NCBI GenBank assembly: GCA_044375925.1
Contig: JBILLT010000003.1
Span: 6,988-70,987 of the forward strand
Direction: 5' to 3'
Length of the DNA stretch: 64,000 nucleotides
Source of the DNA: Chthoniobacteraceae bacterium
Lineage (GTDB): Bacteria; Verrucomicrobiota; Verrucomicrobiia; Chthoniobacterales; Chthoniobacteraceae
Shown: one piece after another, positions 4,030 through 19,312 of the stretch
Position numbering within the stretch: the first letter of the stretch is position 1
Layout of the letters: every line of letters begins with the position of its first letter
Made by a program: the position numbers and the translations under genes
The notes under the pieces: model-generated
Told to the model about the DNA's origin: nothing
What the model saw: the letters and a program-made list of their open reading frames with translations, nothing else
Databases searched by the model: none

Positions 4030-4266
4030 GATCGTCGGGAATGCAAACAGAGTCGCAGGTTTTAGCCAACCCGATTTACACACCGGTCGCGTCCTGCGGT
4101 TCCGAGGCACCCGGCCGCACGGTTGAACCGCTCGGGATGAGTCGGATTCTGATGACGCGCCGATGAATCTCTCCTCCGTTGCAAAAGCCGAAAAGAGACT
4201 TCTCCGAACAGGAGAGATTAACAGGGCGCGAATTTACGACATGCCAACGGTCAGCGGAATCCACCA

Positions 4267-5598
4267 CTACCATCGATAACACACCACCCGCGGCGGATCC
4301 CCCCCGCGAGAACGCTCGTTCTGAGAGATATACAACCGGCCGCCTGCGACTGCGGGTCCGGCCCAGGTTTCCGGGGCTTCAAAGAGCGAAATGCTCTTCA
4401 CCACCACACATTTGGAATCGACATCGTTCACGAAAACCAGTCCCCCAGACTCCCCCAGCGCCAACAGTCCTGCAGAACCCAGATTCACAAACGCGCCCCT
4501 TCCGAACTTGCCGCCCAAGTCGTCGCGCCACCTCTCGCTGCCTGTAGCAGCATCCAAACAAACCAACTCCGCGAGCCGCGGATTTTGTCCGTCGAATCCA
4601 AAAATGAGCCCGTCCCGGTAAACAGGCGTGCCGAACTGGCTACCCAACTTCGTTGTCCTCCAAACTTCTGATAACGCGCCGTCGTCCTTTACCTCCACAA
4701 GCAGAGTCCCCGCCCCATAACCCTCACTGACCAAAACCCGCCGCTCTCCAACCAAGACTGGGCTGGCAGCATTGACTGATTCGGCGATCCGTGCGCGATG
4801 CGACACCGCACCCAGAACCGCTCCACTAAAAGGATCGATACACAACACTCCACCCGTGGGGGGCCGTGTCTCGCCCCCGACGAACGCCACGATAAACTGA
4901 CGCACCCCATCTTTAGTGCGAACAGAAATGGGCAGCACAGATGCATATCCCGCACCCCATTCATGCTTTGCCACCCACAAATCAGCACCCGTTTCAGCGC
5001 TAAAAGCGCCTACACACTCGCCCGATTCGCCACCGAGCGGGATGATCACCTTTCCATTCTGAACAAGCGGGGAGGAACCGTGTCCAAAAAAGTTATCCTT
5101 CATTCGATAATCCCGCTTCAAGTCGCGAGTCCATTGCATCGCACCCGTCAAAAGGTCAACGCAGTGCAACTGACCGGTAACACCGAATAAAAAAACTCTT
5201 CCACCCTCGACCACTGGACTGGAACGCACTCCATCACTGGCGCCGAACCGATCACGGTAAGGTGCATTGTACGCGTAGTTCCATTTTCCTTTTCCGGTTG
5301 CCGACTCCAAGCAATCCAGCACCTCATCGGATCCAACACGGTGGAAAACAAGCACGGAGTCGCCTGTGACAATCGGCGTCGACCAGCCTTTTCCCTTTTT
5401 GAAAGTCCACTCCTCTGTGAGGGATGAAGTTGCTATCAACCCTTCGGCCGCATGATCCGAAGGCTTCAAGTCGTTTGCCGGGCCCAAAAAACGGGACCAT
5501 TCAGAAGCATTAGCGGTTGAAGCAAACGCAACAGCGAACGCGCACAGACTGAACAACGCTCGAATCTCTGTTTTTTTAAGTTTCCGTTGAGTTTTCAT
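4267..5598 (-). CDS. Secreted BamB/PQQ-like beta-propeller repeat protein
   Basis: Signal peptide MKTQRKLKKTEIRALFSLCAFAVAFASTANA. Repeated motifs of the type G.V(F/Y).....G.L.C.D..TG...W run through the protein. Confidence 0.8.
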   Translation of the reverse strand: MKTQRKLKKTEIRALFSLCAFAVAFASTANASEWSRFLGPANDLKPSDHAAEGLIATSSLTEEWTFKKGKGWSTPIVTGDSVLVFHRVGSDEVLDCLESATGKGKWNYAYNAPYRDRFGASDGVRSSPVVEGGRVFLFGVTGQLHCVDLLTGAMQWTRDLKRDYRMKDNFFGHGSSPLVQNGKVIIPLGGESGECVGAFSAETGADLWVAKHEWGAGYASVLPISVRTKDGVRQFIVAFVGGETRPPTGGVLCIDPFSGAVLGAVSHRARIAESVNAASPVLVGERRVLVSEGYGAGTLLVEVKDDGALSEVWRTTKLGSQFGTPVYRDGLIFGFDGQNPRLAELVCLDAATGSERWRDDLGGKFGRGAFVNLGSAGLLALGESGGLVFVNDVDSKCVVVKSISLFEAPETWAGPAVAGGRLYISQNERSRGGDPPRVVCYRW

Positions 5599-5655
5599 AC
5601 TGAGCCCGCAGAAATCAAAAGGGAATGGATGAGAAACACCTCCTTAAAGCGTTTT

Positions 5656-6213
5656 TCACGTTGCATCAGTTGTCTGTCTCAAAGAAGGCAGGACCTCGAC
5701 AATTCTTGCTAAAATCATGCCGTCTGAGCGTTTCAAAATGTTGCAGCGGCCATAGAGCTCGCACCCATCCGAGCCGTCGAAAATCTCTTGCATCCACTCA
5801 CTCGGATACAACCCAAAGAAACACTGCGGCTCGCTGAAATACCCGAGCCCGTCGCGATTCAGTAGCCCCCCAAGAGGAACTTTTCCGTCCTCAATCTCGT
5901 TCTGGAGAATCCTTGAAAACCCACCCAGTACAATCTCGATCACCCCATACTCAACCGCCCTTGAATCGGTTGCTTTTCGCAAAATCACTTCCCGGAAGTA
6001 ACCCCTCTCATCAGCAATCGAGCGATTGACAACGTCGAGGCAAACTTTGTCAGCGTGCAATGCCTCGAGCCGCGATGTCATATCTCCGTTGTGAACCAGC
6101 AACGCCGCCGCAGCCTCGGGCAACTCCGCAGCGGCGAGCACTCTGATCTCGCCGACGCCGAAGGGGCGGAACATTCGCAGGAGACTCAGAAACTGATCCT
6201 GAATCATATTCAT
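5656..6213 (-). CDS. Chorismate-lyase-fold (UbiC/DUF98-like) protein
   Basis: 185 aa. LLVHNGDMTSRLEAL...V....R....ER.YFREV.L resembles the DUF98/chorismate pyruvate-lyase core. Its ATG overlaps the stop of the upstream radical SAM gene (ATGA at 6210-6213). Confidence 0.45.
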   Translation of the reverse strand: MNMIQDQFLSLLRMFRPFGVGEIRVLAAAELPEAAAALLVHNGDMTSRLEALHADKVCLDVVNRSIADERGYFREVILRKATDSRAVEYGVIEIVLGGFSRILQNEIEDGKVPLGGLLNRDGLGYFSEPQCFFGLYPSEWMQEIFDGSDGCELYGRCNILKRSDGMILARIVEVLPSLRQTTDAT

Positions 6214-7559
6214 GTGTAACGCGAGTTCTGATGTTGCGGGAGGAAAAAAGGATTCAGCAGAGTATCCACCTTGAGAAGAGCTGCGCGCGTGAGAATAAAG
6301 CAGTCGGCATTCCAGCCGCCCAGGTTCCGCGCTACGAGGTCAGCCCACTGCCCCGCAAACCGGACTCGAATATCCTCGCCGAATTTCATCAAGAAATAAG
6401 GGGCATTCACGCTCCCAAGTTTCATTTGCAGGATCAGCTCTCGGATCATGCGCTCCTCCGGAATAGTTGCCATCGCTCTAGACGCGGGCAGAGCGCCGGC
6501 TTCCACGGTCTCAATATACTGTCCGATTTCAGCGACATTTTGAAAATGCACGCCACCAATGTGAGAAAATGAGGCCACTCCGGCGCCGATCAGGTCAGCT
6601 CCCTTCCAGAGCGAATCGCGGTAAACAAACTTGGTCTTTGCAGAATCAAGCACCGCCGTATACCCGCTGGTCACCGTGTATCCCGCGCGCTCCAACTCGG
6701 TGAATGCGAAATCCACCCACCCCCTCTTGGTGGCCCAGTCAGCTACTGGAGCCACCAATTTACCATCCACCTTCATCTGTTTGTAAATGCCAGTATTGTA
6801 TGGCACTTCCATTTGATAAATCGTCACGCAGTCTGGCGCCATCGCCACAAGTTTCCTGATGTTTTCCCTCCAGTTCTCATCCGTCTCCTCCACCATGCCG
6901 GCAATGAGATCCACGTTGATCTGAGGAAACCCCGCCGACCGGGCGGAAGCGTAGGCACGCTGAATCTCATCCGCCCTGTGAGCGCGGCCGTTTATTTCGA
7001 GAATTCGCGAGTCAAAGTTCTCGACACCGAGACTTAGGCGCGTGACCCCCAGTTCACGGATCGCATTGAGCTTGGCCTCATTCAATGTGCCCGGCTCAGC
7101 TTCAAAAGTGACCTCTTGCGCCTCAGTCCATGGCAGCAAAGCCTTCATTCGATCGGTCAAAGATCGCAGCTGTGAGACGCTGAGATAACTCGGAGTCCCG
7201 CCGCCGAAATAGATGAATTGCGGCAGGCGCTTGTTCACAAAAGGGGCGCTCGCGTACCTTTCCAACTCAGCAATTCCTGCATCAAGGTAGCGTTGGATCT
7301 CGCCCGCGTTCTTGTCTGTGTAAACGCGGAAATAGCAAAAATGGCAGCGCTTCCGGCAGAAGGGTATATGGAAATACACCCCGAGAGGCGTCTCCGAGGA
7401 AGCAGGAACGGCGAGTAATTCCGGAAGGTGCTTGGCAGTAGCTGGGTCCCAAAAATGAAACGGCGGGTAGTTGGAAACGAAATAGTTTCCCGCCCGTGTT
7501 TCCTCGTTTGTTTCCACCGGGCCGACAGAATGCGAAGGCAAAGATTGAGAGCTCATCAT
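6210..7559 (-). CDS. HemN-like radical SAM enzyme (oxygen-independent coproporphyrinogen III oxidase family)
   Basis: YFHIPFCRKRCHFCYF (CxxxCxxC cluster site), YFGGGTPS, and a HemN-type C-terminal region. Trimmed to the ATG at 7559 (MMSSQS...), which overlaps the stop of the upstream propeller gene (ATGA). Confidence 0.85.
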   Translation of the reverse strand: MMSSQSLPSHSVGPVETNEETRAGNYFVSNYPPFHFWDPATAKHLPELLAVPASSETPLGVYFHIPFCRKRCHFCYFRVYTDKNAGEIQRYLDAGIAELERYASAPFVNKRLPQFIYFGGGTPSYLSVSQLRSLTDRMKALLPWTEAQEVTFEAEPGTLNEAKLNAIRELGVTRLSLGVENFDSRILEINGRAHRADEIQRAYASARSAGFPQINVDLIAGMVEETDENWRENIRKLVAMAPDCVTIYQMEVPYNTGIYKQMKVDGKLVAPVADWATKRGWVDFAFTELERAGYTVTSGYTAVLDSAKTKFVYRDSLWKGADLIGAGVASFSHIGGVHFQNVAEIGQYIETVEAGALPASRAMATIPEERMIRELILQMKLGSVNAPYFLMKFGEDIRVRFAGQWADLVARNLGGWNADCFILTRAALLKVDTLLNPFFLPQHQNSRYT

Positions 7560-8719
7560 TTCTTCGGAGTTTTCAGAGCGTGCAACGCTCCGTCTTCTGC
7601 ACCGATAATAATCCAGCCATCGGAGACGGCAGCCGATGCGACAATCGGAGCACCGATATCGTATACCCATCTCTCCGCGCCATCAGTCAGAGCGATCCCG
7701 TACAATCTGCCGTCCTGCGAACCCACAACGACAGTATCGCCGCATATCACGGGAGATCCGTCGACCTTCCCCCGTGTGGAGAACTGCCAGACTCCACGGC
7801 CATCAGACAACCCGATGCAATGCACCCGCTTGTCGTTACCCCCGATGACCAAACGGTCAGCGTGAATCGCGGCGCTTGAAAGGTACGGAAAAGCGCGATC
7901 CCGATAAGTCCAGATGACTTTCGCGGCTGCGACATCCATCCCCAACACCACATTGCCGTAATGCCCCACATATGCTGTCCCATTCTCCGCGACTGCCACC
8001 GAAGAGGCCACGTACGCATCCGCTTCAATCTGACCGCGCTGTTTGCCGTCTTTCAGCGAGATAATTCGGAGAAGCGCGTCACAACCTCCGAAAATCACTT
8101 CACTATTTGGAAGAAGGGCAGGTGTTCCGTTGATGTAGTTATCCGTGAGACAGGTCCAAATTGAAGCACCCGAGAGCGCGTCGACACAGTGGAGCGTCGC
8201 ATCATAACTCCCAAAAAGCAGCCAATTGCCGGTCCCGTCGGGTGCGCCCGCAAAATTCGCCCCTCCCATTATCTTGTCTCCTGTCTCGTAAACCCAGCGA
8301 ACGTCGCCATTTTCGGCATCGAACGCGTAAAGCTTTCCATCAACCGACCCGACATACACGAGCGCTCCCAACGCCAGTGGGGTCGCCTCAATTGGTCCTT
8401 GCGTTTTGGCAGTCCAAACTTCTTTTCCATCATTCAAGCTGAGTGCATGAAAAACCCCCGCGTCATCACCCACGTAAACCTTGTCCCGCGCGATCACTGC
8501 ACCGCCCTTGATTGGTTTGCCCGCGCTAAACGTCCACTCGGACCGAGGTGCAGCGCTTGCCTCCATAGAGGAGTAGCCGTCGAGCCTCGGCCCGCCGCGA
8601 TGCATCATCCAGTCCGCTCGGATACCCGAGATCGCGCAGCAAAAAAACATGCCCATCAGCAGCGAATTTTTCGCAGCACGGCCGAATCTGCACCCTGAGC
8701 TGAGCACATGCATTTGCAT
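7556..8719 (-). CDS. Secreted BamB/PQQ-like beta-propeller repeat protein
   Basis: Repeats such as VYVGDDAGVFHALSLNDGKEVW, VYVGSVDGKLYAFDAENGDVRW and VVVGSQDGRLYGIALTDGAERW. Hydrophobic N-terminus. The ATG at 8719 overlaps the ADH stop (TGATG). Confidence 0.8.
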   Translation of the reverse strand: MQMHVLSSGCRFGRAAKNSLLMGMFFCCAISGIRADWMMHRGGPRLDGYSSMEASAAPRSEWTFSAGKPIKGGAVIARDKVYVGDDAGVFHALSLNDGKEVWTAKTQGPIEATPLALGALVYVGSVDGKLYAFDAENGDVRWVYETGDKIMGGANFAGAPDGTGNWLLFGSYDATLHCVDALSGASIWTCLTDNYINGTPALLPNSEVIFGGCDALLRIISLKDGKQRGQIEADAYVASSVAVAENGTAYVGHYGNVVLGMDVAAAKVIWTYRDRAFPYLSSAAIHADRLVIGGNDKRVHCIGLSDGRGVWQFSTRGKVDGSPVICGDTVVVGSQDGRLYGIALTDGAERWVYDIGAPIVASAAVSDGWIIIGAEDGALHALKTPKK

Positions 8720-9870
8720 CACAACAATTCCCGATAGATCGCCTCGAAATCGCTCGTTTCGTAGCGAACCGGATTGAATGAGGCGGTCCACTGGACTGAG
8801 GCCTCTTGGGCCATTTTCCCGATCGACTCTTCCGTCACGCCCAGTTTACCCAGCGGCGCGTCCAGTCCAGCCAGACCGAGAATCTCTTCAATCCTCCAGA
8901 TCAACGGCTCGAATGAAGAGTAGCCGACCAATCCGGCTAGAGCGTCATACTCGTTGACGGCGAACTCCTCCCGCACGTTGCGCCGCATCACGCTTGTGAT
9001 AAGCCGCCCTACGGCCTGACCGTGGATCACACCGAAATGGGCGGTCAGCGGGTTCGCGGCTGAATGAGCGCAGCCGAGCATTGAATTTTCAATAGCCATG
9101 CCCGCGTAGGCAGCGCCCAGAAGCATGGCCCCGCGCGCCTCAATGTCATCAGGCTTTGCGAGCACTGCGGGAAACGCATTGATGATCAAGCAAAACGCCT
9201 CGCGTGAAAAAACACGCGAAAGTTCGGTGCGCTTTTTAGTGACCGCCGTTTCCAAAGCGTGCACCAAGGCGTCGACGCCGGTGCAGGCGGTCACTCTCGG
9301 TGGCTGCGACACGGTCAGTTCCGGATCCAAGATGGCCACACGCGCCGCGGCCTTTGGGTCTCCGCACGCCATTTTCAAATGACTGGCTGGATCCGCGATC
9401 AAAGCGAAGGACTGACACTCGCTTCCAGTTCCCGCGGTCGTGGGGATCGCGACGAGTGGCAGCATTGGTTTGCTCGCCTTGCCGACCCCGTGATAGTCAC
9501 GCATCTCGCCGCCATTGGTCAGAATAAAATTCGCACCCTTGGCTGTATCCATGGAACTGCCTCCGCCAAGCCCGACAAACATGTCCACGGCGAAACCGCG
9601 CGCAACATCGACGCAGCGGGATACATCCTCGGTATCGGGATTCTCCCGGACGGCATCGAAAACGGCTACGTGAATGCCGTCCGTTTCAAGCAGCTTCCGG
9701 GCACGTTCGAGGTGCCCGGCAGCGACAATTCCCTTGTCCGTGACGATGAGGACGCGTTTCCCCCCGACATCACGCACAATCTCCCCAAGCCGACTCAACG
9801 CGCCGCCACCAAAAACGACTCGCGTACGAGGTTGGAAATCGAACGGAAGCATCATCGCCAAGCGAGTCAT
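8719..9870 (-). CDS. Iron-containing (group III) alcohol dehydrogenase
   Basis: GLGGGSSMDTAKG, IPTTAGTGSE and HALETAV...H..AN.L..HFGV.HG metal-binding histidines. The ATG at 9870 overlaps the stop of the upstream gene (TGATG). Confidence 0.9.
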   Translation of the reverse strand: MTRLAMMLPFDFQPRTRVVFGGGALSRLGEIVRDVGGKRVLIVTDKGIVAAGHLERARKLLETDGIHVAVFDAVRENPDTEDVSRCVDVARGFAVDMFVGLGGGSSMDTAKGANFILTNGGEMRDYHGVGKASKPMLPLVAIPTTAGTGSECQSFALIADPASHLKMACGDPKAAARVAILDPELTVSQPPRVTACTGVDALVHALETAVTKKRTELSRVFSREAFCLIINAFPAVLAKPDDIEARGAMLLGAAYAGMAIENSMLGCAHSAANPLTAHFGVIHGQAVGRLITSVMRRNVREEFAVNEYDALAGLVGYSSFEPLIWRIEEILGLAGLDAPLGKLGVTEESIGKMAQEASVQWTASFNPVRYETSDFEAIYRELL

Positions 9871-11312
9871 CAAGCGCGCTCAATCGAACGGCGACGGTAC
9901 AAGAACTCGAACATGTTTCCCTCGTGCGGCTGATCCCATGAGATTTTCATCGTAGAGATCGGACCTAGATTGAGGCGCTCGATCAATGGCGAATCAAGCA
10001 ACTGAGAACGGAAATCAGGATTATCAGTGATTGCGGTGACAACAAGCGATGGTCCGATTTTATCAAGCATCTCCGCCTCGGGAACCTCCACGACACTCGC
10101 GTACGGGCACAAAAACTCGCGGTTGGCCAGAGGGTGATCAAAGGATTCACAGTGCACCACCGTCGCCCTCAGATAAGTTCCACCTTCAAACACCTCTCGC
10201 CTGGATCCCCCGCGGTACTTCTCGGTCACGTCGGTCGCCCCGGGCACCTTCAATCCCTCATCGATCGCTCCGTCGATGTAGTCTGCCATTTTTGGATTTG
10301 CGAATCCGGACAATCTCGCATCCGGACTATCTGCCGGCTGCGGACGCAAGGGCCCAAGCTTTTTGGCAAGTGCGTCGGCAATCTCTCTGCCGTGCCTGGG
10401 CACCACCACTGCAGACGCATTGATGCAGGAACGGCCTCCGTTGTCGGCTATCGAGGAAACCATGAGGTCGATGTACTGTTCCCAATGATCGACGCAATCG
10501 CTGCCTATCAAGATTTTCGAGAACCCGGGTCCGTGAACCGAGAACTTTGGATTATCCCGGTACTGCGCGACAGTGTTTGCATCACCGAAAATGAGCGCGC
10601 GGCCGCAAATCCGCATGACCTCTCCCGCGCCCTCGTGATCGGTTGGATAGAAACCGAACGCTTCGGGCGGCGCTCCCGCAGCGATGAACGCCTGGATCAG
10701 GCGATAAGGTGTCCACGGTTCTTCGCGACCCGGCTTGATGATCACAGGCGTTTTAAGCGCAACGGCGGGCAGCCACAACGAATTCACAGCGGGTGAATTG
10801 CTTGGCATCACCAAGCCGAGCGCCTGCGTGGTGGGATAATAACTAACCGCAGCCCCACTCTGCTCGCCATACCCGCGGTCGATCACTTCAAGAGGCAGTC
10901 CGCGCGTCAGACCGTTGAGGACGGTGTGCATGTTGGTAAGGGCGTGATGAATCTTGCCCATGTTCCGGCTGACCATCACGTGCGGCAAACCGCTGGTCCC
11001 AGCAAGGGTGGCGATGTATTGCGCCGCAGTCTGCGTGTGCCCCTTGTCTCCGAGCGGAAGCGTGCCGTTTAAAAACAGCTCTCCGGCTTTGGATGATATC
11101 TCGATCAACTGCGCGACAGAAAACTTCCGCAATGCGGCGCGAGCCTCGCCGATGCTTTTGAGATCCTTTTTGAGAATACCCGCGTTGACCTGACTCACCG
11201 TCGCAACGACGGCGCCGGTGCGATGATCAACGATGTCATTTTTATCGAGGCTTTCATACGGCTTCCCGCGGCGGATTGCAGGCAGATGAGGAACTGTGCT
11301 TGAAATGCTCAT
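9870..11312 (-). CDS. Aldehyde-dehydrogenase-superfamily protein, LuxC-like acyl-CoA/acyl-protein reductase candidate
   Basis: 480 aa after trimming to MSISSTVPHLP. NGGRSCINASAVVV fits a catalytic-Cys loop. Size and position directly after a LuxE-like gene match LuxC. The ATG overlaps the upstream stop (TAATG at 11312). Confidence 0.7.
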   Translation of the reverse strand: MSISSTVPHLPAIRRGKPYESLDKNDIVDHRTGAVVATVSQVNAGILKKDLKSIGEARAALRKFSVAQLIEISSKAGELFLNGTLPLGDKGHTQTAAQYIATLAGTSGLPHVMVSRNMGKIHHALTNMHTVLNGLTRGLPLEVIDRGYGEQSGAAVSYYPTTQALGLVMPSNSPAVNSLWLPAVALKTPVIIKPGREEPWTPYRLIQAFIAAGAPPEAFGFYPTDHEGAGEVMRICGRALIFGDANTVAQYRDNPKFSVHGPGFSKILIGSDCVDHWEQYIDLMVSSIADNGGRSCINASAVVVPRHGREIADALAKKLGPLRPQPADSPDARLSGFANPKMADYIDGAIDEGLKVPGATDVTEKYRGGSRREVFEGGTYLRATVVHCESFDHPLANREFLCPYASVVEVPEAEMLDKIGPSLVVTAITDNPDFRSQLLDSPLIERLNLGPISTMKISWDQPHEGNMFEFLYRRRSIERA

Positions 11313-12382
11313 TAATAGACTCCTTCCACAATTTTCTTTTCCATTGCTCCGAAAGGCCGCACCTCGGCAACTCCGTCCCATGCGTACTGGTTCCTAGGTT
11401 TTCGGCGGATGGCTTCGTCACGTTCCAAGAAGCGCGGCATGAAAAACTCCTTGGTCAGTGTTGTTAACTCGACTCTTCCCCAGGTGTCATAATCGACGGT
11501 TTTTGAGGTGTCAGCGGGGTTGACTACGCGAAGGATGGCCCTCGGCTGCGGGGCATAGTAGGTGATCGAGTACTGGTCTTCCGGTGTGCGCGGAACGGAG
11601 GCAGCCAACCCCATGAGAGTGTTGCCGTAGGTCGGATAAAAACCGATTCGATTCTCCAAAACCTCCTCCACGATAAATCTGACGTACTGCGGAAGCATTG
11701 TTGTGCCCCCACAAAAGACGCCCCTGATTCCAGCGTCCCATATGTCGACGCGCTCCGCGAGAGCCTCGAGCAGCTTTGGCGTGGTAAACAGACCGCTGAC
11801 CTTACGATGTTTGAGAATTGTCGCGGCCTGATCGACCACGTGCTCCATGTAGGCCTTGGCCTGGTCAAACTGCTTGTTTGAGATCAACCGCTTGACCCAA
11901 CGCGGATCCAGATCGATGAAGTAGCATGCCGATCCCCGGACATTTGCTAGATGCTCGATCGCCAACCGGAGTCTGCGCGGGCCAGTGGGACCCATCATTA
12001 ACCAGTAGTGATTCCGGGGGAAGTGCTCGTCACTGATCTTCTCGCTGAACTCGCTGTAATCCACCTTGTAGTCATCCCAACCGATGCGTTGTTTCGGCAT
12101 GCCCGTCGTGCCGCCCGTTTAAAAAATATAACACGGCCGCCCTGCAAACGCCTTGGGAACCCAAACCTCGGGTTGCAGATCCCTGAGCCACTCATCCTCG
12201 AAGTGCGGGAACTTATTAAGATCGGCGGTGGTTTTGATTTCGGCCTTTGGATCCCATCCCGCTTTCGCGGCCCAGTTCAGCCAAAACGGCGATCCCGTCT
12301 CGGGGCTAAAATGCCACTGGATGATGTCTCTCAGGTGCGAGTCGAGTTGAGACTGCGCTGCTTCGGGTGTTGTTGTGCTCAT
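11312..12382 (-). pseudogene. LuxE/PaaK-like acyl-adenylate-forming enzyme interrupted by an in-frame TAA (12119-12121); pseudogene or recoded gene
   Basis: Track ORFs 12119..12382 and 11312..12100 are in the same frame. The minus strand reads ...GRPCYIF-TAA-TGGTTGMPKQRIGW..., so the stop sits one codon before the [ST]GGTTGxPK adenylate-enzyme P-loop. Combined length is about 356 aa, which is LuxE-sized. Confidence 0.6.
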
Positions 12383-12439
12383 AATTTTAAGTGCCTTGAT
12401 TTGTGAAACTCAGTGATTCTCGAAAGTACGGGAGATGGC

Positions 12440-14131
12440 TCAGTGTGATGATGCGGCGTCTTCAGCGGGAGGCTTCGGCAGTAGAAAGCTGAGGAGAAGA
12501 CCAATCACAAAGACCGACGTTCCCACGATTCCAGCGGCGAAAGCCACCTTGTCGAAGGTCGAGTTCCCGGGAACCATCGGCGCCACGATGTTTGTCGTCA
12601 AAAAGGCCGCTGAAGTTCCAATCATGCGCCCTCCCACATTCGTGGCAAAAGACCCCCCCGTCCCACGCAGGTGCAACGGGAAAACTTTTGGGAGAAACTC
12701 TCCGAAATACGAGAACTGAGCGACGATCAGCAAACCGCAAACTGCAATGCCCCAGTTCAACGCCTGGCCACCAGAGGCGTACAATCCGAAGTAAGTCAGC
12801 GGGACTGCGACCAGGCCGGGCACCAAGAAAATGCGCAGCAGTGTCCCACGAGCCACCGCAAGTAAAACAAGTAAAGCGAGGGCGATTCGCCCGGCTAACC
12901 CGCCGACCTCCTGCCAGAGTTGGGCACTGTTCGCACGCGCCTTCACAGCGAGATCAAAAGGTTCCTGCTTCTCGCGGTTGTCGCCAAGCTGCTTTAGGAG
13001 CTTTTCCCTGTCCAAAACCGCTGTCTTTGCATCCGGATGACTCACGCAAAGCTGTTCTAGTTCGGCGCTCAGATCCTTGAACTCCATGTTGAGCTGGTCG
13101 GCTTTTGCCTTGTCTCCCGCCTTCATCGCGACCCGGAACGCGATTCTATTTTTGGCGCGCTTCGCCCCGAGCACGCGAAGCGCGGGGATTTTGTCGAAGG
13201 CCTCTTGAGCGCGGCTGTTGGTGCCGATCATTTCGATGTTGAGAGCCTTTGCCTCATCCTGAAGAGGCTTCAACCCTGCGCGCTGCTCCGACAATTCCGG
13301 TACGCCGGGGATCACACGAAGCGGCGTGAGTTGAAGGGCACCAAAAGCGGCGGCATAAGCGCAAGCCGATAGACCGGCAGTCACCAGCGTGGTGCGGCGG
13401 AGGTCAGGAGTGAACAGACCACTCAAACTCGGGCGAGTCATGCCTCCTGCAGCCTTCCGCTCCCGCCAAACTCGCGATTCGGGCACGAAAGGCAAAAGTA
13501 ACGCGATGGGGATGGCCGGCAGAAAGCCTGTCAGTAAGGTGTACCTCCACGAGGCGTGAACATTTAGAAAGTCAGGAACCGGGAGGCCCGGGAGGTCATT
13601 CGCATGCACCACGATCCACCCGTTTACGGCGGTCACAAGGATTCCACCGAGAGATGCGAAAGCCTGTGTGAACCCGAGCGCGAACTCACGCTGTTTGCGA
13701 TCATCAAACAATTCTGCCAGCCAAGTGATTGCGGCGATGAATTCGACGCAAACTCCCACGAATGTCAGGCTGCGGAAAAAGACAAACACCGGAAGCGAAG
13801 TTGCAAACGCGGCAGCGCATGGAGAGAAGGAGTACAGGAGAATACTCAGCACCATGATCCGCTTCCGGCCGAACTGGTCGATCAGCCATCCGCCCATCAG
13901 CCCGAAGACTCCTCCGCACAAAGCAGAAATCCAAAGCATCCGCCCAGTCCAATCCGTCACGAGGGGATTGTTCGGGGGCAAAGCGAGGAGCTCCGCGATT
14001 GCAGGGACACCCACCAAAGGAGTCATCAACAGCTCGTATGTATCGAACAAAAAACCGATGCTGGCAATGATGAGAACGAGCCAGCGGGTGCCGGGGGCAA
14101 TCGGACTAGTTGGGGTGGAGTTGCTGCTCAT
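12440..14131 (-). CDS. MFS transporter with a ~130-aa hydrophilic helical insertion
   Basis: GGWLIDQFGRKR (MFS motif A-like) and about 12 hydrophobic segments. A charged K/E/A-rich segment (aa ~276-408) lies between the predicted seventh and eighth hydrophobic segments. Confidence 0.8.
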   Translation of the reverse strand: MSSNSTPTSPIAPGTRWLVLIIASIGFLFDTYELLMTPLVGVPAIAELLALPPNNPLVTDWTGRMLWISALCGGVFGLMGGWLIDQFGRKRIMVLSILLYSFSPCAAAFATSLPVFVFFRSLTFVGVCVEFIAAITWLAELFDDRKQREFALGFTQAFASLGGILVTAVNGWIVVHANDLPGLPVPDFLNVHASWRYTLLTGFLPAIPIALLLPFVPESRVWRERKAAGGMTRPSLSGLFTPDLRRTTLVTAGLSACAYAAAFGALQLTPLRVIPGVPELSEQRAGLKPLQDEAKALNIEMIGTNSRAQEAFDKIPALRVLGAKRAKNRIAFRVAMKAGDKAKADQLNMEFKDLSAELEQLCVSHPDAKTAVLDREKLLKQLGDNREKQEPFDLAVKARANSAQLWQEVGGLAGRIALALLVLLAVARGTLLRIFLVPGLVAVPLTYFGLYASGGQALNWGIAVCGLLIVAQFSYFGEFLPKVFPLHLRGTGGSFATNVGGRMIGTSAAFLTTNIVAPMVPGNSTFDKVAFAAGIVGTSVFVIGLLLSFLLPKPPAEDAASSH

Positions 14132-14254
14132 GAATTTTTATTTGGGACAAGAAGACAAACTCGCCGTGGGGGAAGAGCCACGCAGTGAAAGTTCGTTTGA
14201 ACAACGCCGACAGAGAGCCCCCCTGCCCTGCGCGGGAGGCCCGACTGCAGACAG

Positions 14255-15847
14255 TTAGGGTTTTGCTGCAGCTTGAACGGGTGTTGCGCCGTCACCGACT
14301 ACAAACATGTGCGTCTGGGAGCAAATATACATCAGCCCGTTTGCCACGATCGGCGTTGAAAAAATCGGCGCACCTACGTTGCACTCGCTGATCACTTTTT
14401 TATCCGCGGAAGACGCGAGCACCACGAAGTCGCCGTCTTCGTCGCCGACATACACTTTTCCGTCGGCAACGAAGGTCGACCCCCACATGTGAGCCTGCAT
14501 GTCATGGACCCAGTGAAGTTTTCCGGTCTTTGAATCCAAGCAGTGCACGAAACCCGAGAAGTCTGCGATGAAAAGCAAACCGTTCTCCGGATCAATTGAC
14601 ACCGTCGAGATCGACCGCTTGATCCCCTTGTAGTCCCACACCAAGGCCGACGCCGTCACGTCGCCGGTCTTGCTGGGATCGATGCAGACCAGGCGTCCCA
14701 CGCCTTCGCCGTGCTCCGGATCCTGCCCGATTGCAACATAGACACGATCGTTGTAAAAAACAGGCGTCGCGTTGATTTCACTGGGCCCCTCGGCCGCAGG
14801 GTACTTGATCGCCTTTCCATTCTTGTCCTTCTTGTACTCGGGAGGAACACAATCAAACCACCAGACGCGCTTGATGAAGTTGGAGTCGCCGTCTTTCACT
14901 GGAGTGGTGTCAAGAGCGTAGAGAACACCATCCCCGCCGCCGAAGTAGACCTGCTTCTTGCCGTTGACCACTCCGATGGATGGCGATGTCCACTGGCCGT
15001 GCAGGATCTTGGGGCCGATACCGGCTTCGTCCTCGCCGATGAGTTCACCCGTGTTTTTGTTCAATGCGATGAACGAGGGCGACTGCGGGGATGGAATGTT
15101 GACATGCGTCCAGTCCTGACCGTTGGAGGTGCACACGAAAATGGCATCGCCATCAATGATCACAGAGCAGTTGGAGGCGTTATGGGGAAACACGCCCAAC
15201 TCATCCATCATGTCGTATCTCCAAAGAATGTCGGCATCGGTCGCGAGCACCTCGAGCTTCGGTTTGCCGGGGCCGGCCATATACTGTCCTTCGTCCATGA
15301 ATGGCCCCTGGTTGCCATTCGCCTGACCCTTTAAGTCAAGGCAGAGCACCTCGCATCGGCTGGTGACGATGTAAACGCGATCCCCCTCAACACACGGGCT
15401 GGCCAGGATGCCGAGGTACTCCCAGTCATTCACCTTTCCAGAAGCAAGCTTCGGCACGGTTAACTGCCACAAGAAACCGCCGTCGCTCTCCCGCAGCGCG
15501 TACAAAATCGATTTGTCGTCTTTAAAACGCGGATCTCTTGGGGACGCGTTGTTCGTCCCCACAAGCGCAACCCCCTTTGAGACCACCGGATTCCCGTACG
15601 ACTGTGAACCGAGCTTCGCGATCCACTTCACGTTCTTTGTCGTGGCGAGATCGATTTCCTCGGAGTTCGGCTTGAAGTTGCCGGGCTTGATCGAAACTGG
15701 AAGCCCCTTCACGGGCGAATACATGTTCCGCCCGGGATTGTCCCCTCCCCACTGCGGCCAGTCGGCAGCGGTGGAGATTTGAGAAGACGCAAGGAAACCC
15801 AGTGCAATGCCGCCGAGCGCGAGAGTGTGGTGAGGAACGTTTTTCAT
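14255..15847 (-). CDS. Secreted BamB/PQQ-like beta-propeller repeat protein
   Basis: Signal peptide MKNVPHHTLALGGIALGFLASSQISTAADWPQWGG. Repeats include VYIVTSRCEVLCLDLKG, VYFGGGDGVLYALD, FIADFSGFVHCLDSKTGKLHW and VYVGDEDGDFVVL. Confidence 0.8.
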   Translation of the reverse strand: MKNVPHHTLALGGIALGFLASSQISTAADWPQWGGDNPGRNMYSPVKGLPVSIKPGNFKPNSEEIDLATTKNVKWIAKLGSQSYGNPVVSKGVALVGTNNASPRDPRFKDDKSILYALRESDGGFLWQLTVPKLASGKVNDWEYLGILASPCVEGDRVYIVTSRCEVLCLDLKGQANGNQGPFMDEGQYMAGPGKPKLEVLATDADILWRYDMMDELGVFPHNASNCSVIIDGDAIFVCTSNGQDWTHVNIPSPQSPSFIALNKNTGELIGEDEAGIGPKILHGQWTSPSIGVVNGKKQVYFGGGDGVLYALDTTPVKDGDSNFIKRVWWFDCVPPEYKKDKNGKAIKYPAAEGPSEINATPVFYNDRVYVAIGQDPEHGEGVGRLVCIDPSKTGDVTASALVWDYKGIKRSISTVSIDPENGLLFIADFSGFVHCLDSKTGKLHWVHDMQAHMWGSTFVADGKVYVGDEDGDFVVLASSADKKVISECNVGAPIFSTPIVANGLMYICSQTHMFVVGDGATPVQAAAKP

Positions 15848-15917
15848 TGGTTGAATTTGGTGGGGATAGAATGCGAGGTTAGGCCTTGTGTTTGACGCCG
15901 AGTTTGGGAAGCGCGGG

Positions 15918-18383
15918 CTACGGCTTCAATGCCGCGTTCGGGGTGACTGTGATGTTATCAATCCACGCGCGCTGCTCCTGGGGGCTGAAAGAGTAGAACC
16001 CCGGCGCGCCCTTGGTATGCGCGGTCTTGTGAACAAACTCAACGGTCCATACATCAGGTTCCGGGTCGCTTTTTTTCCAAGCTTTTGCGCGGATCACCCC
16101 GGAGCCTTTTGAATCAACGTCCACGCGGCTCTTGATCGTGTACCATTCGTTGGGAGCCCACGGGAACCGAATTTTGTGCAGGAGCCTCTCTTGATTGGAG
16201 CTGATTTCGAGCTCCTGATAGTTGCCCTTCAAAACCACGAGGTATCGCTGGTTGATCATTCCGATCTCGCTCATCTTGCGCTTGTTACCCTCAGACAAAA
16301 CATCCATCGACACGGTGTAATCCTTCGAATCGGGATGACCAATGAAGATTTGCCCGCGCTGAAAAAGTTTATTGTCGATCGTCTTGCATAGCGCCTTGTT
16401 CTCTTCAGCACCCGGAGCTTTGCGCACATCAAAACGGAACCGCGCTGCATTCCACGCGAGTGGCGGGTAAGCAAACGCGGTGGGCGGTTCAAGCGTGTTC
16501 GGGACCGCCGGAACGGGCGGCTTATCCGTCATGAAACTGAGGTCGCTTTTTTCAAAATCAATCAAAAGCGGAATGTCCGGCAGGACCCTTGCGCGCATCG
16601 TGCCAGTGATCTCGCCCATGGATGCCTGATAAGCTCCGGCGCTCGCAACAGGTTCGGCGTCCGCGACGAGACGGCCCTGGGCATCGAATGCGCCGTTCAT
16701 CTTCGCCTTCACCAACGCTGTCGGGGGCACATAGGACTCAAACTTCAAACGGCTCGCATCGATATTCTCCTCGACAGTGAACCCACTCGCATCGAGCCCG
16801 CGGATCCTGACCTTTTGGGATGCGCCCGGCTTTAAAAGGATTTCCCCCGGGATGATTTGCAACTTTGCGAGCGGACCAGGCTTCACCGTCTCCCATCCGT
16901 CGGATGCATGGACAGATTCAGCGCTGGGGTTGTTGCCTTTTTTTCCGAAGCAATAGAGTTTGCGGTCCGTCTGAATGTAGAGCTTCCCGTTGAAAGCAAT
17001 CGGGGATCCGTAGCAGCGCCCCTCGAGTAAAGTGCGGGAAATGATTTCCCCATCGTTCGATCCGGGGTTGATCACGAAAAGTTCACCGTTTCCACCAGTG
17101 TCCGCGCCTGCTGCCGATTTCTCAGCCGATCCCGCGTCGGCGATGTACATCGCGACGTAGATGTGGCCGTCGCCGAAAAATGGCGAGCTTTGGCGCTGCT
17201 CTGCGGCAAGTTTTTTCTTCCACAACACTTTGCCCGTGCCCAAGTCAACCGCCGCGAGTTCCCCCGTGCCCGTGACCAGATACATCGTGTCGCGAACGAT
17301 GCACGGGGAGCTTGCAAGATTACCCAAGGGGTTTCTCCAAAGCTCCAAGTCTTTCGGATCGTAAACCTGAGGTTTTCCCGGCTCGGGCGCCTTGGATCCC
17401 ACTGGGAGTTTGAATGCGGCGGCACGACCCACCTCGCTTGAGTCAAGATTTTCGGACTCATGAATCACAAGCAGGCTCTCCTTGTAACGGTGGATCGCGG
17501 CGTTGATGCCGCCTTTCGCGCCCGCCTTCGCAGCGGGGAATCGGAAGATAGGATCCCCATTTCTCGCGTTGATTCCGACGACGGTGGAGTCGCCGCCCGC
17601 TGATATCAAAACTCGCTTTCCATCCAACCAAGTCAGCAGAGGCTGCGAGAATGTATTGTCCTGGGGACGCTCACCGGGCGAGCTGCTCCACACCAGTTCC
17701 CCGGTGCGCTTGTCGAACGCATAAAACCGGTCGCCGGCAGGGCCGTTCGCACCCCAGTTGGAAGTGATGCCTCGAGTGATGACCAACTCCCGGTCGATGC
17801 GAGGCGAAGCCGTCCGCGAATTCGGGAAAGTCAGACGGCCAAGCTCCTCCATCAACGAATGCTGCCAGATGAGTTTCCCGTCCTTCGAAAAACAGGAAAA
17901 CACACCCTGCGTGCACTGAACGTAAACATTCCCGGTCTCCGCATCTACCGCAGGACTTGAAGTCGAGTACCTCAGGTAGATGGTGTCACTCAGGAAATCA
18001 TTGAACCGATGCTGCCATAGCTGTTTTCCGGTCTCGGCATCAAAGCAGGTGATCGCCTCCTGCAAATCCTCCGCTTCCCCCAAATAACCGTTGATGTACA
18101 AGCGCCCTTCGTGGATGACCGGCGTGGACTGGCCGGGGAAATTTGCAGTCCAGAGCGCCGACTTTGCGTCAATTTTCGACGGCAGTCCCGTCTCGGTCGT
18201 TGTGCCGTTCTGGTAGGGCCCGCGCCACTCAAGCCACGCGGGAGCGCCGTTGTTCGCGGATTTAGGGGAGGCCGCCTTCTCGGCTCCCTGCCCGGGGGCG
18301 GGTTTCTTTTTTTCCGCGGCGAAAAGAGAAGCCCCGAGGAGCGCGACTGAAAGAAGTGAGATGAAGCGTGGATTCGATGGCAT
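15918..18383 (-). CDS. Large secreted protein: PQQ-like beta-propeller, a Big_2-like Ig domain and a C-terminal concanavalin/DUF1080-like domain
   Basis: Signal peptide MPSNPRFISLLSVALLGASLFA. Propeller repeats in the N-terminal ~480 aa. KLQIIPGEILLKPGASQKVRIRGLDASGF is Big_2-like. The last ~200 aa (…YTVSMDV…WYTIKSRVD…GAPGFYSFSPQEQRAWIDNITVTP) resemble DUF1080 / 3-keto-disaccharide hydrolase lectin folds. Confidence 0.8.
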   Translation of the reverse strand: MPSNPRFISLLSVALLGASLFAAEKKKPAPGQGAEKAASPKSANNGAPAWLEWRGPYQNGTTTETGLPSKIDAKSALWTANFPGQSTPVIHEGRLYINGYLGEAEDLQEAITCFDAETGKQLWQHRFNDFLSDTIYLRYSTSSPAVDAETGNVYVQCTQGVFSCFSKDGKLIWQHSLMEELGRLTFPNSRTASPRIDRELVITRGITSNWGANGPAGDRFYAFDKRTGELVWSSSPGERPQDNTFSQPLLTWLDGKRVLISAGGDSTVVGINARNGDPIFRFPAAKAGAKGGINAAIHRYKESLLVIHESENLDSSEVGRAAAFKLPVGSKAPEPGKPQVYDPKDLELWRNPLGNLASSPCIVRDTMYLVTGTGELAAVDLGTGKVLWKKKLAAEQRQSSPFFGDGHIYVAMYIADAGSAEKSAAGADTGGNGELFVINPGSNDGEIISRTLLEGRCYGSPIAFNGKLYIQTDRKLYCFGKKGNNPSAESVHASDGWETVKPGPLAKLQIIPGEILLKPGASQKVRIRGLDASGFTVEENIDASRLKFESYVPPTALVKAKMNGAFDAQGRLVADAEPVASAGAYQASMGEITGTMRARVLPDIPLLIDFEKSDLSFMTDKPPVPAVPNTLEPPTAFAYPPLAWNAARFRFDVRKAPGAEENKALCKTIDNKLFQRGQIFIGHPDSKDYTVSMDVLSEGNKRKMSEIGMINQRYLVVLKGNYQELEISSNQERLLHKIRFPWAPNEWYTIKSRVDVDSKGSGVIRAKAWKKSDPEPDVWTVEFVHKTAHTKGAPGFYSFSPQEQRAWIDNITVTPNAALKP

Positions 18384-18655
18384 GGCGGGAGGTTTTGCGT
18401 TTCGGGTGGGGAGAGTTTAAGGGGCGCGGAGGAGGGATCGGGACTGCGGGCAGGCAGAGTGCTTTCACCGGGAGTGATGCGGCGGGGCCGCGCGGAAATT
18501 AGTATGCACACAAACTATCTGCGGGCAGTCTTTTTCTTTGTTCCTTTTTTGCTTACCAACCCCTGCCTTCGGCCCTGCCCCGGCAGAAGCTGCCGTCACC
18601 CGGAATGAGTGCGCGGACAAGTCTCCATGCGCAGACTCAACCCACTGAAGACTAA

Positions 18656-19258: not shown

Positions 19259-19312
19259 ACGGCGTTAAACTAATACATTTGAGCCGGGAGCAACACCTTT
19301 CAAATGTGAAAA

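What the first reader, a model, noticed from the sequence alone, without database searches (positions are those of the whole stretch)
5656..12382. Six translationally coupled genes: a LuxE/LuxC/Fe-ADH acid-to-alcohol module joined to a beta-propeller, a HemN-like radical SAM enzyme and a chorismate-lyase-fold protein
Seen in the sequence: every junction on the minus strand overlaps start and stop codons. These are TAATG at 11312, TGATG at 9870, TGATG at 8719, ATGA at 7556-7559 and ATGA at 6210-6213, so the six ORFs very likely form one translationally coupled unit. An MFS transporter ends 57 nt upstream and another propeller gene starts 57 nt downstream. Established knowledge: LuxE-type enzymes adenylate a carboxylic acid, LuxC-type reductases release the aldehyde, and group III Fe-ADHs reduce aldehydes to alcohols. 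HemN-like (class C) radical SAM enzymes perform decarboxylations or methylations. The UbiC/DUF98 fold binds or cleaves chorismate to 4-hydroxybenzoate. Inference: this may be a dedicated pathway that makes or remodels an aromatic (chorismate-derived) or lipid alcohol or aldehyde, with MFS export and periplasmic propeller partners. I know of no characterised pathway with this composition.
Basis: partly seen in the sequence, partly recalled or inferred. Interest (0 to 1): 0.72.

Follow-up and report, generated by a model that had tools for sequence, protein, structure and literature searches.

The report
Verrucomicrobial aryl-acid reductase gene cluster
This is a tightly packed operon from a Chthoniobacter-like verrucomicrobium whose first two enzymes are relatives of the phenazine-pathway pair EhpF/EhpG, which are proposed to reduce an aromatic acid to its aldehyde; the operon is common in the phylum and unstudied, but in this genome its first gene is cut by a stop codon.

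Summary
All five start/stop overlaps and both 57-nt spacers are real. The first "gene" (11312-12382) is not one ORF: an in-frame TAA at 12119-12121 replaces an invariant Glu just before the TGGTTGMPK loop.

Neither LuxE nor LuxC is detected. Gene 1 is a full-length homologue of EhpF (PDB 3L2K, E 4.5e-45), a truncated adenylating enzyme. Gene 2 is a homologue of its partner EhpG. It is an ALDH-fold protein that keeps the catalytic Cys but has His in place of the general-base Glu.

Gene 3 is a group III Fe-ADH and gene 4 a secreted BamB/PQQ-like propeller. Gene 5 is HemN-like but scores below every curated HemN, HemW and ChuW cut-off. Gene 6 models confidently as a DUF98/chorismate-lyase fold.

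So the acid-to-aldehyde-to-alcohol logic and the chorismate link hold, through a different known family.

The six-gene order is not a fixed unit. It joins two modules that lie apart in other genomes. All six occur in 7 of 48 related species. The most constant neighbours of gene 1 are two upstream propellers (44 of 51) and a transporter, either MFS or sodium:solute symporter, which points to uptake rather than export. The substrate is unknown. This is a new variant of a known kind.

The parts
15918..18383 (-). Secreted 821-aa PQQ_2/BamB-like propeller protein with a long C-terminal extension.
   Evidence: Pfam PQQ_2 and PQQ. Found upstream of gene 1 in 44 of 51 species loci with enough flank. 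No PDB sequence relative.
14255..15847 (-). Secreted 530-aa PQQ_2-like propeller protein.
   Evidence: Pfam. Upstream of gene 1 in 44 of 51 loci.
12440..14131 (-). MFS transporter (563 aa) in the transporter slot directly upstream of gene 1.
   Evidence: Pfam MFS_1 and Sugar_tr. The best NCBIfam models are aromatic-acid and sialate H+ symporters, all below cut-off. An SSF-family symporter takes its place in 15 loci. Not similar to EhpJ.
11312..12382 (-). Gene 1: EhpF-type truncated ANL adenylating enzyme of 356 codons, interrupted at codon 88.
   Evidence: PDB EhpF 3L2K/3HGU, E 4.5e-45, residues 12-356 against 19-366. 33% identity to Pantoea EhpF. More than 8000 relatives; the 120 best listed are 80-92% identical.
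12119..12121 (-). In-frame TAA replacing the invariant Glu of the F-E-TGGTTGMPK motif. Codons 84 and 85 are also uniquely changed (F to C, N to Y).
   Evidence: The two fragments are on record from the source contig.
9870..11312 (-). Gene 2: EhpG-type ALDH-superfamily protein (480 aa). The Cys nucleophile is kept and the general-base Glu is replaced by His.
   Evidence: 27% identity to Pantoea EhpG, E 2e-38. Pfam Aldedh 51.5 bits. Motif alignment to canonical ALDHs.
8719..9870 (-). Gene 3: group III iron-containing alcohol dehydrogenase (383 aa).
   Evidence: Pfam Fe-ADH 3.6e-51 and ADH_Fe_C 9.4e-30. No NCBIfam equivalog reached (best ErcA, 272.6 against a cut-off of 550).
7556..8719 (-). Gene 4: secreted 8-bladed BamB/PQQ-like propeller (387 aa).
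   Evidence: Pfam Beta-prop_ACSF4 180 bits (cut-off 133) and PQQ_2. Hydrophobic N-terminus followed by a conserved ADWPMHRG motif. Nearest PDB entries are designed propellers and BamB.
6210..7559 (-). Gene 5: HemN-like (class C type) radical SAM enzyme (449 aa).
   Evidence: Pfam Radical_SAM. PDB HemN 1OLT 5.6e-32 and NocN 6.3e-26. Below all NCBIfam cut-offs. Always followed by a gene 6 homologue in relatives.
5656..6213 (-). Gene 6: DUF98/chorismate-lyase-fold protein (185 aa).
   Evidence: AlphaFold2 pLDDT 90.9. Foldseek 2NWI (DUF98) E 4.4e-7, E. coli chorismate lyase TMq 0.55-0.57. hhalign motif matches to UbiC. Fused to a halogenase-like flavoprotein in L001.
4267..5598 (-). Secreted 443-aa PQQ_2-like propeller that closes the cluster in this lineage.
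   Evidence: Pfam. Orthologues follow gene 6, or the flavoprotein, in relatives.

Best explanation
The interval is a composite operon made of two modules.

Module A comprises the upstream propellers, the transporter, and genes 1 to 4. It carries a two-component, ATP- and NAD(P)H-dependent carboxylate reductase of the EhpF/EhpG type. Gene 1 adenylates a carboxylic acid, most likely an aromatic one. Gene 2, an ALDH-fold protein with a Cys nucleophile but no hydrolytic Glu, reduces the activated acyl group to the aldehyde. Gene 3, an Fe-ADH, takes the aldehyde to the alcohol.

Module B in this window is genes 5 and 6. Gene 6 is a chorismate-lyase-fold enzyme that would make a hydroxybenzoate-type acid from chorismate. 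Gene 5, the HemN-like radical SAM enzyme, would modify it, for example by ring C-methylation. In this lineage module B sits directly downstream of A and is translationally coupled to it. It probably supplies or tailors the acid that A reduces, while the transporter offers a second route by uptake.

Shown: homology, domain content, motif status, gene order and its distribution. Inferred: every catalytic step, the aromatic nature of the substrate, and the link between the modules.

In this particular genome gene 1 cannot give an active enzyme as written. Translation stops before the P-loop, and the only downstream restart (ATG at 12100) lies after it.
For: - Gene 1 matches EhpF end to end. Like EhpF it lacks the C-terminal ANL domain: Pfam finds no AMP-binding_C.
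- Gene 2 matches EhpG. In Pantoea, Streptomyces and Burkholderia the two genes are likewise adjacent and overlapping.
- Gene 2 keeps the Cys (GGRSC) but has His where canonical ALDHs have the general-base Glu. EhpG has Gln there.
- Fe-ADH domains are clear.
- EhpF/EhpG-like pairs elsewhere lie beside chorismate-pathway genes: phzA-G-type genes, DAHP synthase with PabB, and PhzD/E-like genes. NCBI names some Streptomyces homologues 'arylcarboxylate reductase'.
- Gene 6 has the DUF98/chorismate-lyase fold, with MTSRLE, REV, PLGG and YGRCN motifs aligned to UbiC's MTKRFE, REI, PLGR and WGRRS.
- The pair of genes 5 and 6 is constant wherever either is found. In most relatives a CndH/CmlS-like flavin halogenase homologue follows, and in L001 it is fused to gene 6.
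- Modules A and B are contiguous in L001, L091 and cultured Chthoniobacter flavus.
- From my own knowledge: Bera et al. 2010 (title seen) proposed that EhpF and EhpG convert phenazine-1,6-dicarboxylate to the 6-formyl compound through an adenylate.
Against: - No enzyme here or in the Verrucomicrobiota family has been assayed. As far as I know the EhpF/EhpG mechanism itself is a proposal.
- Modules A and B lie on different contigs in GCA_031389825.1 (L004 versus L090). Module B stands alone at one locus of a complete genome.
- Only 7 of 48 species loci carry all six genes. In about half, no gene 2 follows gene 1.
- The MFS/SSS slot, and the SSS-EhpF-like-ALDH trio in a haloarchaeon, argue for an imported substrate rather than a chorismate-derived one.
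- Pfam finds no Chor_lyase or DUF98 domain in gene 6. The profile hit to 2NWI is weak (E 0.07).
- Gene 1 is 80-92% identical among the 120 best homologues and 76-91% across the 80 species loci. This is unusual for a secondary-metabolic enzyme and is not explained.
- The stop codon means this copy may be inactive.
Confidence: 0.45

Rival explanations
1. Modules A and B are functionally independent neighbours. Module A is an uptake-and-activation system. The secreted propellers bind or process an external compound, the MFS or SSS carrier imports the resulting carboxylate (not necessarily aromatic), and the EhpF-like enzyme activates it. Reduction by genes 2 and 3 is an optional branch. Genes 5 and 6 belong to a different pathway (halogenase-like flavoprotein, GT4, thioesterase, PaaK-like ligase, ABC/FtsX) of which this genome keeps only a remnant.
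For: - Propellers lie upstream of gene 1 in 44 of 51 loci, while gene 2 is adjacent in only 28 of 61.
- MFS is replaced by SSF-family symporters at the same position in 15 loci.
- A homologous SSS-EhpF-like-ALDH trio occurs in Halalkalicoccus.
- A and B are on separate contigs of one genome.
- Module B occurs alone with its own downstream genes.
- The window lacks the flavoprotein, GT4 and PaaK-like genes.
Against: - Genes 4/5 and 5/6 overlap (ATGA) here and in relatives, so B is co-translated with A in this lineage.
- A and B are contiguous in several genera, including a cultured one.
- All characterised or annotated contexts of EhpF/EhpG pairs are aromatic and chorismate-derived.
Confidence: 0.3
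2. One reading: a LuxE/LuxC-type fatty-acid reductase that makes a lipid aldehyde or alcohol.
For: The overall logic is the same: an acyl-activating enzyme followed by an ALDH-fold reductase. JGI labels gene 2 relatives 'acyl-CoA reductase-like NAD-dependent aldehyde dehydrogenase'.
Against: No LuxE or LuxC Pfam hit even at E 10. The clear relatives are EhpF and EhpG. There are no fatty-acid genes in the cluster.
Confidence: 0.05
3. Gene 5 is simply a heme-pathway enzyme (HemN or HemW), and gene 6 is a ligand-binding UTRA-like domain rather than a lyase. On this view the downstream pair has nothing to do with an aromatic pathway.
For: - Sources annotate gene 5 relatives as oxygen-independent coproporphyrinogen oxidase.
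- HemN is the best solved relative.
- UTRA effector domains score almost as well as chorismate lyase in the fold search.
Against: - Scores lie below the curated cut-offs: hemN 166.3 against 324.95, and HemW 153.8 against 205.4. The best model is ChuW/HutW.
- There is constant synteny, and in L001 fusion, with a halogenase-like flavoprotein.
- Gene 6 has no DNA-binding domain, and UbiC-like motifs are invariant in it.
Confidence: 0.08
4. In this organism the cluster is decaying. The TAA is a true nonsense mutation, the flavoprotein and downstream module B genes have been lost, and the system is no longer functional.
For: - There are three unique changes in five codons of the most conserved motif, including the stop.
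- A related contig (L098) has an independent 1-nt insertion that frameshifts gene 1.
- The window and its nearest relatives lack the flavoprotein and GT4 genes.
Against: - The rest of gene 1 shows about 165 synonymous against 30-38 non-synonymous codon differences to relatives.
- All other genes are intact.
- Both disruptions could be assembly errors in metagenome contigs.
- Only one contig carries the fragments.
Confidence: 0.4

Closest known systems
EhpF/EhpG of the D-alanylgriseoluteic acid (phenazine) cluster of Pantoea agglomerans
   Same: - Gene 1 aligns end to end with EhpF (33% identity, same truncated ANL architecture).
- Gene 2 aligns with EhpG (27% identity).
- The genes are adjacent and overlapping in the same order.
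- Both clusters hold an MFS gene and start from chorismate-derived chemistry.
   Different: - There are no phenazine core genes here.
- The partners are secreted propellers, an Fe-ADH, a HemN-like enzyme and a UbiC-like protein.
- The Verrucomicrobiota clade is far more conserved than a typical antibiotic-pathway enzyme (80-92% identity among the 120 best homologues) and forms its own tight group.
- The MFS is unrelated to EhpJ.
LuxE/LuxC fatty-acid reductase
   Same: The chemical logic is the same: activate an acid with ATP, then reduce it to the aldehyde on an ALDH-fold enzyme.
   Different: No detectable sequence membership. No transferase (LuxD) and no lipid context.
Single-polypeptide carboxylic acid reductases (CAR, Nocardia type)
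   Same: The same net reaction is expected: aryl acid + ATP + NADPH gives the aldehyde (my own knowledge).
   Different: CARs are A-T-R multidomain enzymes that use a phosphopantetheine arm. Here there are two separate proteins, no carrier domain, and an ALDH-fold reductase rather than an SDR-fold one.
Chorismate pyruvate-lyase UbiC and the DUF98 family (AF1396, PDB 2NWI; Rv2949c-type)
   Same: Same fold. Matching MT(S/K)R(L/F)E, RE(V/I), PLG and GR motifs.
   Different: Below the detection limit of the Pfam models. 15-18% identity. Activity untested. Encoded next to a radical SAM enzyme and, in relatives, fused to a flavoprotein.
Chorismate lyase plus flavin halogenase pairs (for example Bmp6/Bmp5 in bromophenol synthesis and Ab5/Ab10 in ambigol synthesis; my own knowledge)
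   Same: Relatives of the cluster carry a UbiC-like protein next to, or fused with, a CndH/CmlS/PltA-like flavoprotein.
   Different: The window itself has no such flavoprotein. Halogenation is not shown. The same flavoprotein also resembles QhpG and LodB maturases, more weakly.
HemN and class C radical SAM methyltransferases (ChuW/HutW, NocN)
   Same: CxxxCxxC and GGGTP motifs. Best solved relatives are HemN and NocN.
   Different: Fails all curated family cut-offs. The HemN_C domain is not detected in this copy.

Membership tests
EhpF-type truncated ANL adenylating enzymes | Full-length sequence similarity to EhpF | tested here: met
   PDB 3L2K/3HGU, E 4.5e-45, query 12-356 against chain 19-366. 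BLASTP 33% identity, E 7e-49.
EhpF-type truncated ANL adenylating enzymes | No C-terminal ANL subdomain (about 360 aa in all) | tested here: met
   356 codons. The alignment runs to the last residue of EhpF. No AMP-binding_C hit.
EhpF-type truncated ANL adenylating enzymes | Uninterrupted reading frame through the E-(S/T)GGTTGxPK loop | tested here: not met
   TAA at codon 88 in the window. All relatives examined, and EhpF itself, have Glu there.
EhpF-type truncated ANL adenylating enzymes | Adenylation of an aryl carboxylate | not testable with these tools
   Needs an enzyme assay.
EhpG-type ALDH-fold reductase partner | Similarity to EhpG, encoded directly after the adenylase and overlapping it | tested here: met
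   27% identity, E 2e-38. TAATG junction. Same arrangement in L085, L093 and L094.
EhpG-type ALDH-fold reductase partner | Catalytic Cys present and general-base Glu absent | tested here: met
   GGRSC aligns with GQxC. VHGPG aligns with LE(L/A)GG, placing His at the Glu position. EhpG has Gln there.
LuxE acyl-protein synthetase (Pfam LuxE) | Match to the family model | tested here: not met
   Only AMP-binding is found (28.2 bits, below its 29.9 cut-off), even with max E 10.
LuxC acyl-CoA reductase (Pfam LuxC) | Match to the family model | tested here: not met
   Only Aldedh is found (51.5 bits) at max E 10.
Group III iron-containing alcohol dehydrogenases | Fe-ADH N- and C-terminal domains above the Pfam cut-offs | tested here: met
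   173.5 and 104.2 bits. No NCBIfam equivalog reached.
HemN, oxygen-independent coproporphyrinogen III oxidase | Score above the curated TIGR00538 cut-off | tested here: not met
   166.3 against 324.95.
HemN, oxygen-independent coproporphyrinogen III oxidase | HemN_C domain | tested here: not met
   No Pfam HemN_C hit in the window protein. Only weak hits in some relatives.
HemN-like / class C radical SAM superfamily | CxxxCxxC cluster motif, GGGTP motif, similarity to HemN and NocN | tested here: met
   FCRKRCHFC and FGGGTPS in the sequence. PDB 1OLT 5.6e-32 and 9P2U 6.3e-26.
Chorismate lyase / DUF98 fold | Three-dimensional fold | tested here: met
   Model pLDDT 90.9. 2NWI E 4.4e-7, TM 0.68/0.77. 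1JD3, 1FW9, 1G81 and 1G1B TMq 0.55-0.57.
Chorismate lyase / DUF98 fold | Match to the Pfam Chor_lyase or DUF98 models | tested here: not met
   No family at max E 10. The family profile against PDB gives 2NWI at E 0.07 only.
Chorismate lyase / DUF98 fold | Catalytic Arg and Glu of UbiC (R76 and E155 by my own recollection) | tested here: inconclusive
   The invariant R74 of REV aligns with the Arg of UbiC's REI motif. The invariant E173 (IVEVLP) lies beyond the aligned stretch.
PQQ-dependent dehydrogenases (gene 4) | Score above the curated quinoprotein family cut-offs | tested here: not met
   TIGR03075 50.4 against 480. BamB model 149 against 285. It is a generic BamB/PQQ-like propeller.

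The most novel reading that the evidence does not exclude
Module A is a phylum-wide housekeeping system of Verrucomicrobiota. A small aromatic acid is either salvaged through the MFS/SSS carrier or made from chorismate by module B. The EhpF/EhpG-like pair and the Fe-ADH then convert it into an aldehyde or alcohol that the co-encoded family of secreted PQQ-like propellers needs, for example as a so far unknown cofactor or ligand. This would explain both the ribosomal-protein-like conservation of gene 1 and its fixed linkage to the propellers.
Probability: 0.1. Interest if true: 0.8.

Novelty: new variant of a known kind. Interest (0 to 1): 0.5.

Why it matters
EhpF/EhpG-type two-protein carboxylate reductases are barely studied and are known only from phenazine tailoring.

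It is always tied to secreted propellers and usually to a transporter.

That gives a concrete, testable enzymatic hypothesis for thousands of genes now labelled 'hypothetical' or 'PaaK-like'. It also points to a cultured organism, Chthoniobacter flavus, that carries the full cluster.

If the pair reduces free aryl acids without a carrier protein, it would also interest biocatalysis as a small alternative to the large CAR enzymes.

Tried and rejected
- **LuxE, LuxC, HemN_C and Chor_lyase Pfam membership.** Searched down to E 10; nothing found.
- **NCBIfam.** No protein of the six reaches any curated cut-off.
- **Query error.** My queries carried one extra Phe before the stop. This was corrected from then on. 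It changes nothing except the apparent 1-residue gap in alignment A1.
- **Fragments of gene 1.** Exact look-up of the 87-aa and 262-aa fragments by the look-up of encoding contigs found nothing. The cluster look-up did find them.
- **Recoding.** TAA is not a Sec or Pyl codon. The downstream frame is the same frame, so the slippery-looking TTTTTTAAAC is not a frameshift site. I dropped this idea.
- **Riboswitch or other RNA that might reveal the ligand.** No Rfam match in 4000-19500.
- **Promoter and terminator scans.** Uninformative.
- **Literature.** The EhpF structure paper is not held. No paper was found on the Verrucomicrobiota cluster or on the biochemistry of EhpF/EhpG.
- **The 821-aa propeller.** No PDB sequence relative.
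- **Aryl-polyene or flexirubin-like cluster for module B.** Rejected because no ketosynthase or ACP genes are present.
- **Window surroundings.** Sulfatase, argG, a BsuPI-like protein, a DltA-like ligase, an aminotransferase and HtrA are unrelated and are not conserved next to the cluster.

Full report
**Observation**

The minus strand between 18383 and 4267 carries eleven co-directional genes. The two 57-nt spacers to the flanking MFS and propeller genes are also present.

The first gene, however, is not one ORF. Codon 88 of the 356-codon frame 12382-11312 is TAA (12119-12121). The mechanical ORF list therefore gives an 87-aa and a 262-aa piece. The stop sits directly before the phosphate-binding loop (…GRPCYIF*TGGTTGMPK).

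Every relative examined reads GRPFNIFETGGTTGMPK with GAA at that codon. Codons 84 and 85 are also uniquely altered in the window. The two fragments are on record from a single 107,048-nt public contig, and the restored protein is not. So the stop belongs to the deposited assembly.

The rest of the gene differs from its nearest relatives by about 165 synonymous but only 30-38 non-synonymous codons. Any inactivation is therefore recent, or it is an assembly error. A second related contig (L098) carries an independent 1-nt insertion in the same gene. I cannot tell error from biology without reads.

**What the six proteins are**

- **Genes 1 and 2, family models.** Pfam finds no LuxE or LuxC even at E 10. 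Gene 1 gives only a sub-threshold AMP-binding hit, and gene 2 a modest Aldedh hit. No NCBIfam model is reached by any of the six.
- **Gene 1.** A sequence search of the PDB places it: EhpF of Pantoea agglomerans (3L2K, 3HGU), E 4.5e-45, aligned from residue 12 to the last residue. Identity to the plasmid-encoded EhpF is 33%. [quoted passage not shown] From my own knowledge of that paper, it lacks the C-terminal domain, and EhpF plus EhpG were proposed to turn phenazine-1,6-dicarboxylate into the 6-formyl compound through an adenylate.
- **Gene 2.** It is 27% identical (E 2e-38) to EhpG, the ALDH-family gene that overlaps ehpF in Pantoea. Alignment with canonical aldehyde dehydrogenases shows the Cys nucleophile retained (GGRSC) and the general-base Glu of LELGG replaced by His. 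EhpG has Gln there. This is what one expects of a non-hydrolysing, reductive ALDH-fold enzyme.
- **Gene 3.** A clear group III Fe-ADH.
- **Gene 4.** It has a hydrophobic N-terminus followed by a conserved ADWPMHRG motif. It is a generic BamB/PQQ-like propeller, with no sign of membership in the true quinoprotein families.
- **Gene 5.** It has the HemN-type CxxxCxxC and GGGTP motifs and is closest to HemN and the methyltransferase NocN. It scores far below the hemN, HemW and ChuW cut-offs.
- **Gene 6.** It has no Pfam family. A 32-sequence alignment gave a confident model (pLDDT 90.9). Its best structural matches are the DUF98 protein 2NWI (E 4.4e-7), UTRA effector domains and E. coli chorismate lyase. 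A profile comparison aligns its invariant MTSRLE, REV, PLGG and YGRCN motifs with MTKRFE, REI, PLGR and WGRRS of UbiC.

**Distribution and gene order**

Gene 1 belongs to a very large and unusually uniform clade. 

At 50% clustering the whole EhpF-like superfamily is small: 236 clusters at E ≤ 1e-30.

I tabulated the 80 best species loci by tblastn:

| Feature | Loci with the feature | Loci with enough flank |
|---|---|---|
| The 821-aa and 530-aa propellers upstream of gene 1 | 44 | 51 |
| Gene 2 adjacent to gene 1 | 28 | 61 |
| Genes 2 and 3 both present downstream | 22 | 48 |
| All six genes in order | 7 | 48 |

The seven loci with all six genes are all close to Chthoniobacter.

Between the propellers and gene 1 there is an MFS gene in 16 loci. 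In 15 loci there is a sodium:solute symporter (Pfam SSF) at that position.

A homologous SSS-EhpF-like-ALDH trio exists on a Halalkalicoccus plasmid. In Streptomyces and Burkholderia plasmids the overlapping EhpF-like/ALDH pair lies beside DAHP synthase and PabB, or beside PhzD/E-like genes.

Genes 5 and 6 always travel together. In most relatives they are followed by a CndH/CmlS/PltA-like flavoprotein, which in L001 is fused to gene 6. After it come a propeller, a GT4 glycosyltransferase, a 4HBT thioesterase, a small membrane protein, a PaaK-like ligase and, in most of these loci, an ABC/FtsX transporter.

This second module lies on a different contig from the first in GCA_031389825.1. It stands alone at one locus of a complete genome. 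It directly follows module A in L001, L091 and cultured Chthoniobacter flavus.

The window and its nearest relatives have only genes 5 and 6 and the closing propeller. No flavoprotein, GT4 or PaaK-like gene occurs anywhere in the 64 kb.

**Interpretation**

The best-supported reading is a composite operon.

- Genes 1 to 3 are an EhpF/EhpG-type two-protein carboxylate reductase followed by an alcohol dehydrogenase.
- Genes 5 and 6 are the front end of a chorismate-derived hydroxybenzoate-type pathway.
- The aromatic nature of the substrate is inferred from three things: the UbiC-like neighbour, the contexts of all other EhpF/EhpG pairs, and the 'arylcarboxylate reductase' label on Streptomyces homologues.
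- The replacement of MFS by SSS argues that the transporter imports rather than exports. The window's MFS is unrelated to the exporter EhpJ. So the acid may come from outside, from chorismate, or from both.

The main rival is that the two modules are merely neighbours and that module A handles an imported acid of unknown kind.

Two observations remain unexplained: the very high conservation of gene 1, and its fixed linkage to secreted propellers. They leave room for a more novel role, such as making a small molecule that the propellers use.

**Verdict**

It is wrong in the family names, in the direction of transport, and in treating the six genes as one conserved unit.
- The system is a new variant of a known kind. 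It is widespread, uncharacterised and experimentally approachable.

Noticed in passing
L098:1791-2933 (ENA contig, 81% nt identity to window gene 1): An independent 1-nt insertion (an extra A after TTCCCC, about codon 123) frameshifts the EhpF-like gene. The remainder is perfectly conserved in the shifted frame. This is a second disruption of the same gene in the window's sub-clade.
   Followed up: partly
L011:8369-9955, L045:8363-9913 and 13 other loci; window 12440-14131: The transporter slot between the 530-aa propeller and gene 1 holds either an MFS or a sodium:solute symporter (Pfam SSF). This is a non-orthologous replacement at a fixed position.
   Followed up: yes
L095:4520-8578 (Halalkalicoccus jeotgali plasmid 2): A haloarchaeal plasmid carries the same SSS symporter, EhpF-like and ALDH trio. 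Its symporter is 26% identical (E 2e-42) to the verrucomicrobial one.
   Followed up: partly
L001:16124-17956: In a close relative the gene 6 domain is fused to a 425-aa flavoprotein that has the WxWxIP-type motif (GWFWYIP) and resembles flavin halogenases. In other genomes the two are separate adjacent genes, and in the window the flavoprotein is absent.
   Followed up: partly
L096:958-5325 and 6911-7441 (Chthoniobacter flavus); L091:5809-6342; L019:9431-9952: C. flavus has a 1455-aa NHL-repeat gene inserted between the EhpF-like and EhpG-like genes. Several genomes have a GNAT acetyltransferase between the EhpG-like gene and the Fe-ADH.
   Followed up: no
window 39274-39684 (-): A 4HBT-family thioesterase 52% identical to the thioesterase of module B in L091. 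It lies about 33 kb from the cluster and away from any other module B gene.
   Followed up: no
window 19313-20773 (-) and 18656-19258 (-): Just upstream of the cluster lie a DltA-like complete ANL adenylating enzyme (AMP-binding plus AMP-binding_C) and a small secreted BsuPI-like protein. Neither is conserved next to the cluster in relatives.
   Followed up: no
window 7556-8719, 14255-15847, 4267-5598; alignment A5: Three of the four propeller proteins begin, after a hydrophobic leader, with a similar short motif: ADWPMHRG (gene 4), ADWPQWGG (530-aa) and SEWSRFLG (443-aa). The 821-aa protein may carry a weaker version (PAWLEWRG). This suggests a shared origin or a shared processing signal.
   Followed up: no
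L091:10570-11838: The module B flavoprotein also matches the cofactor-maturation monooxygenases QhpG, LodB and GoxB (E 8e-36 to 6e-24). These matches are well below its match to halogenases but are notable next to propeller proteins.
   Followed up: no
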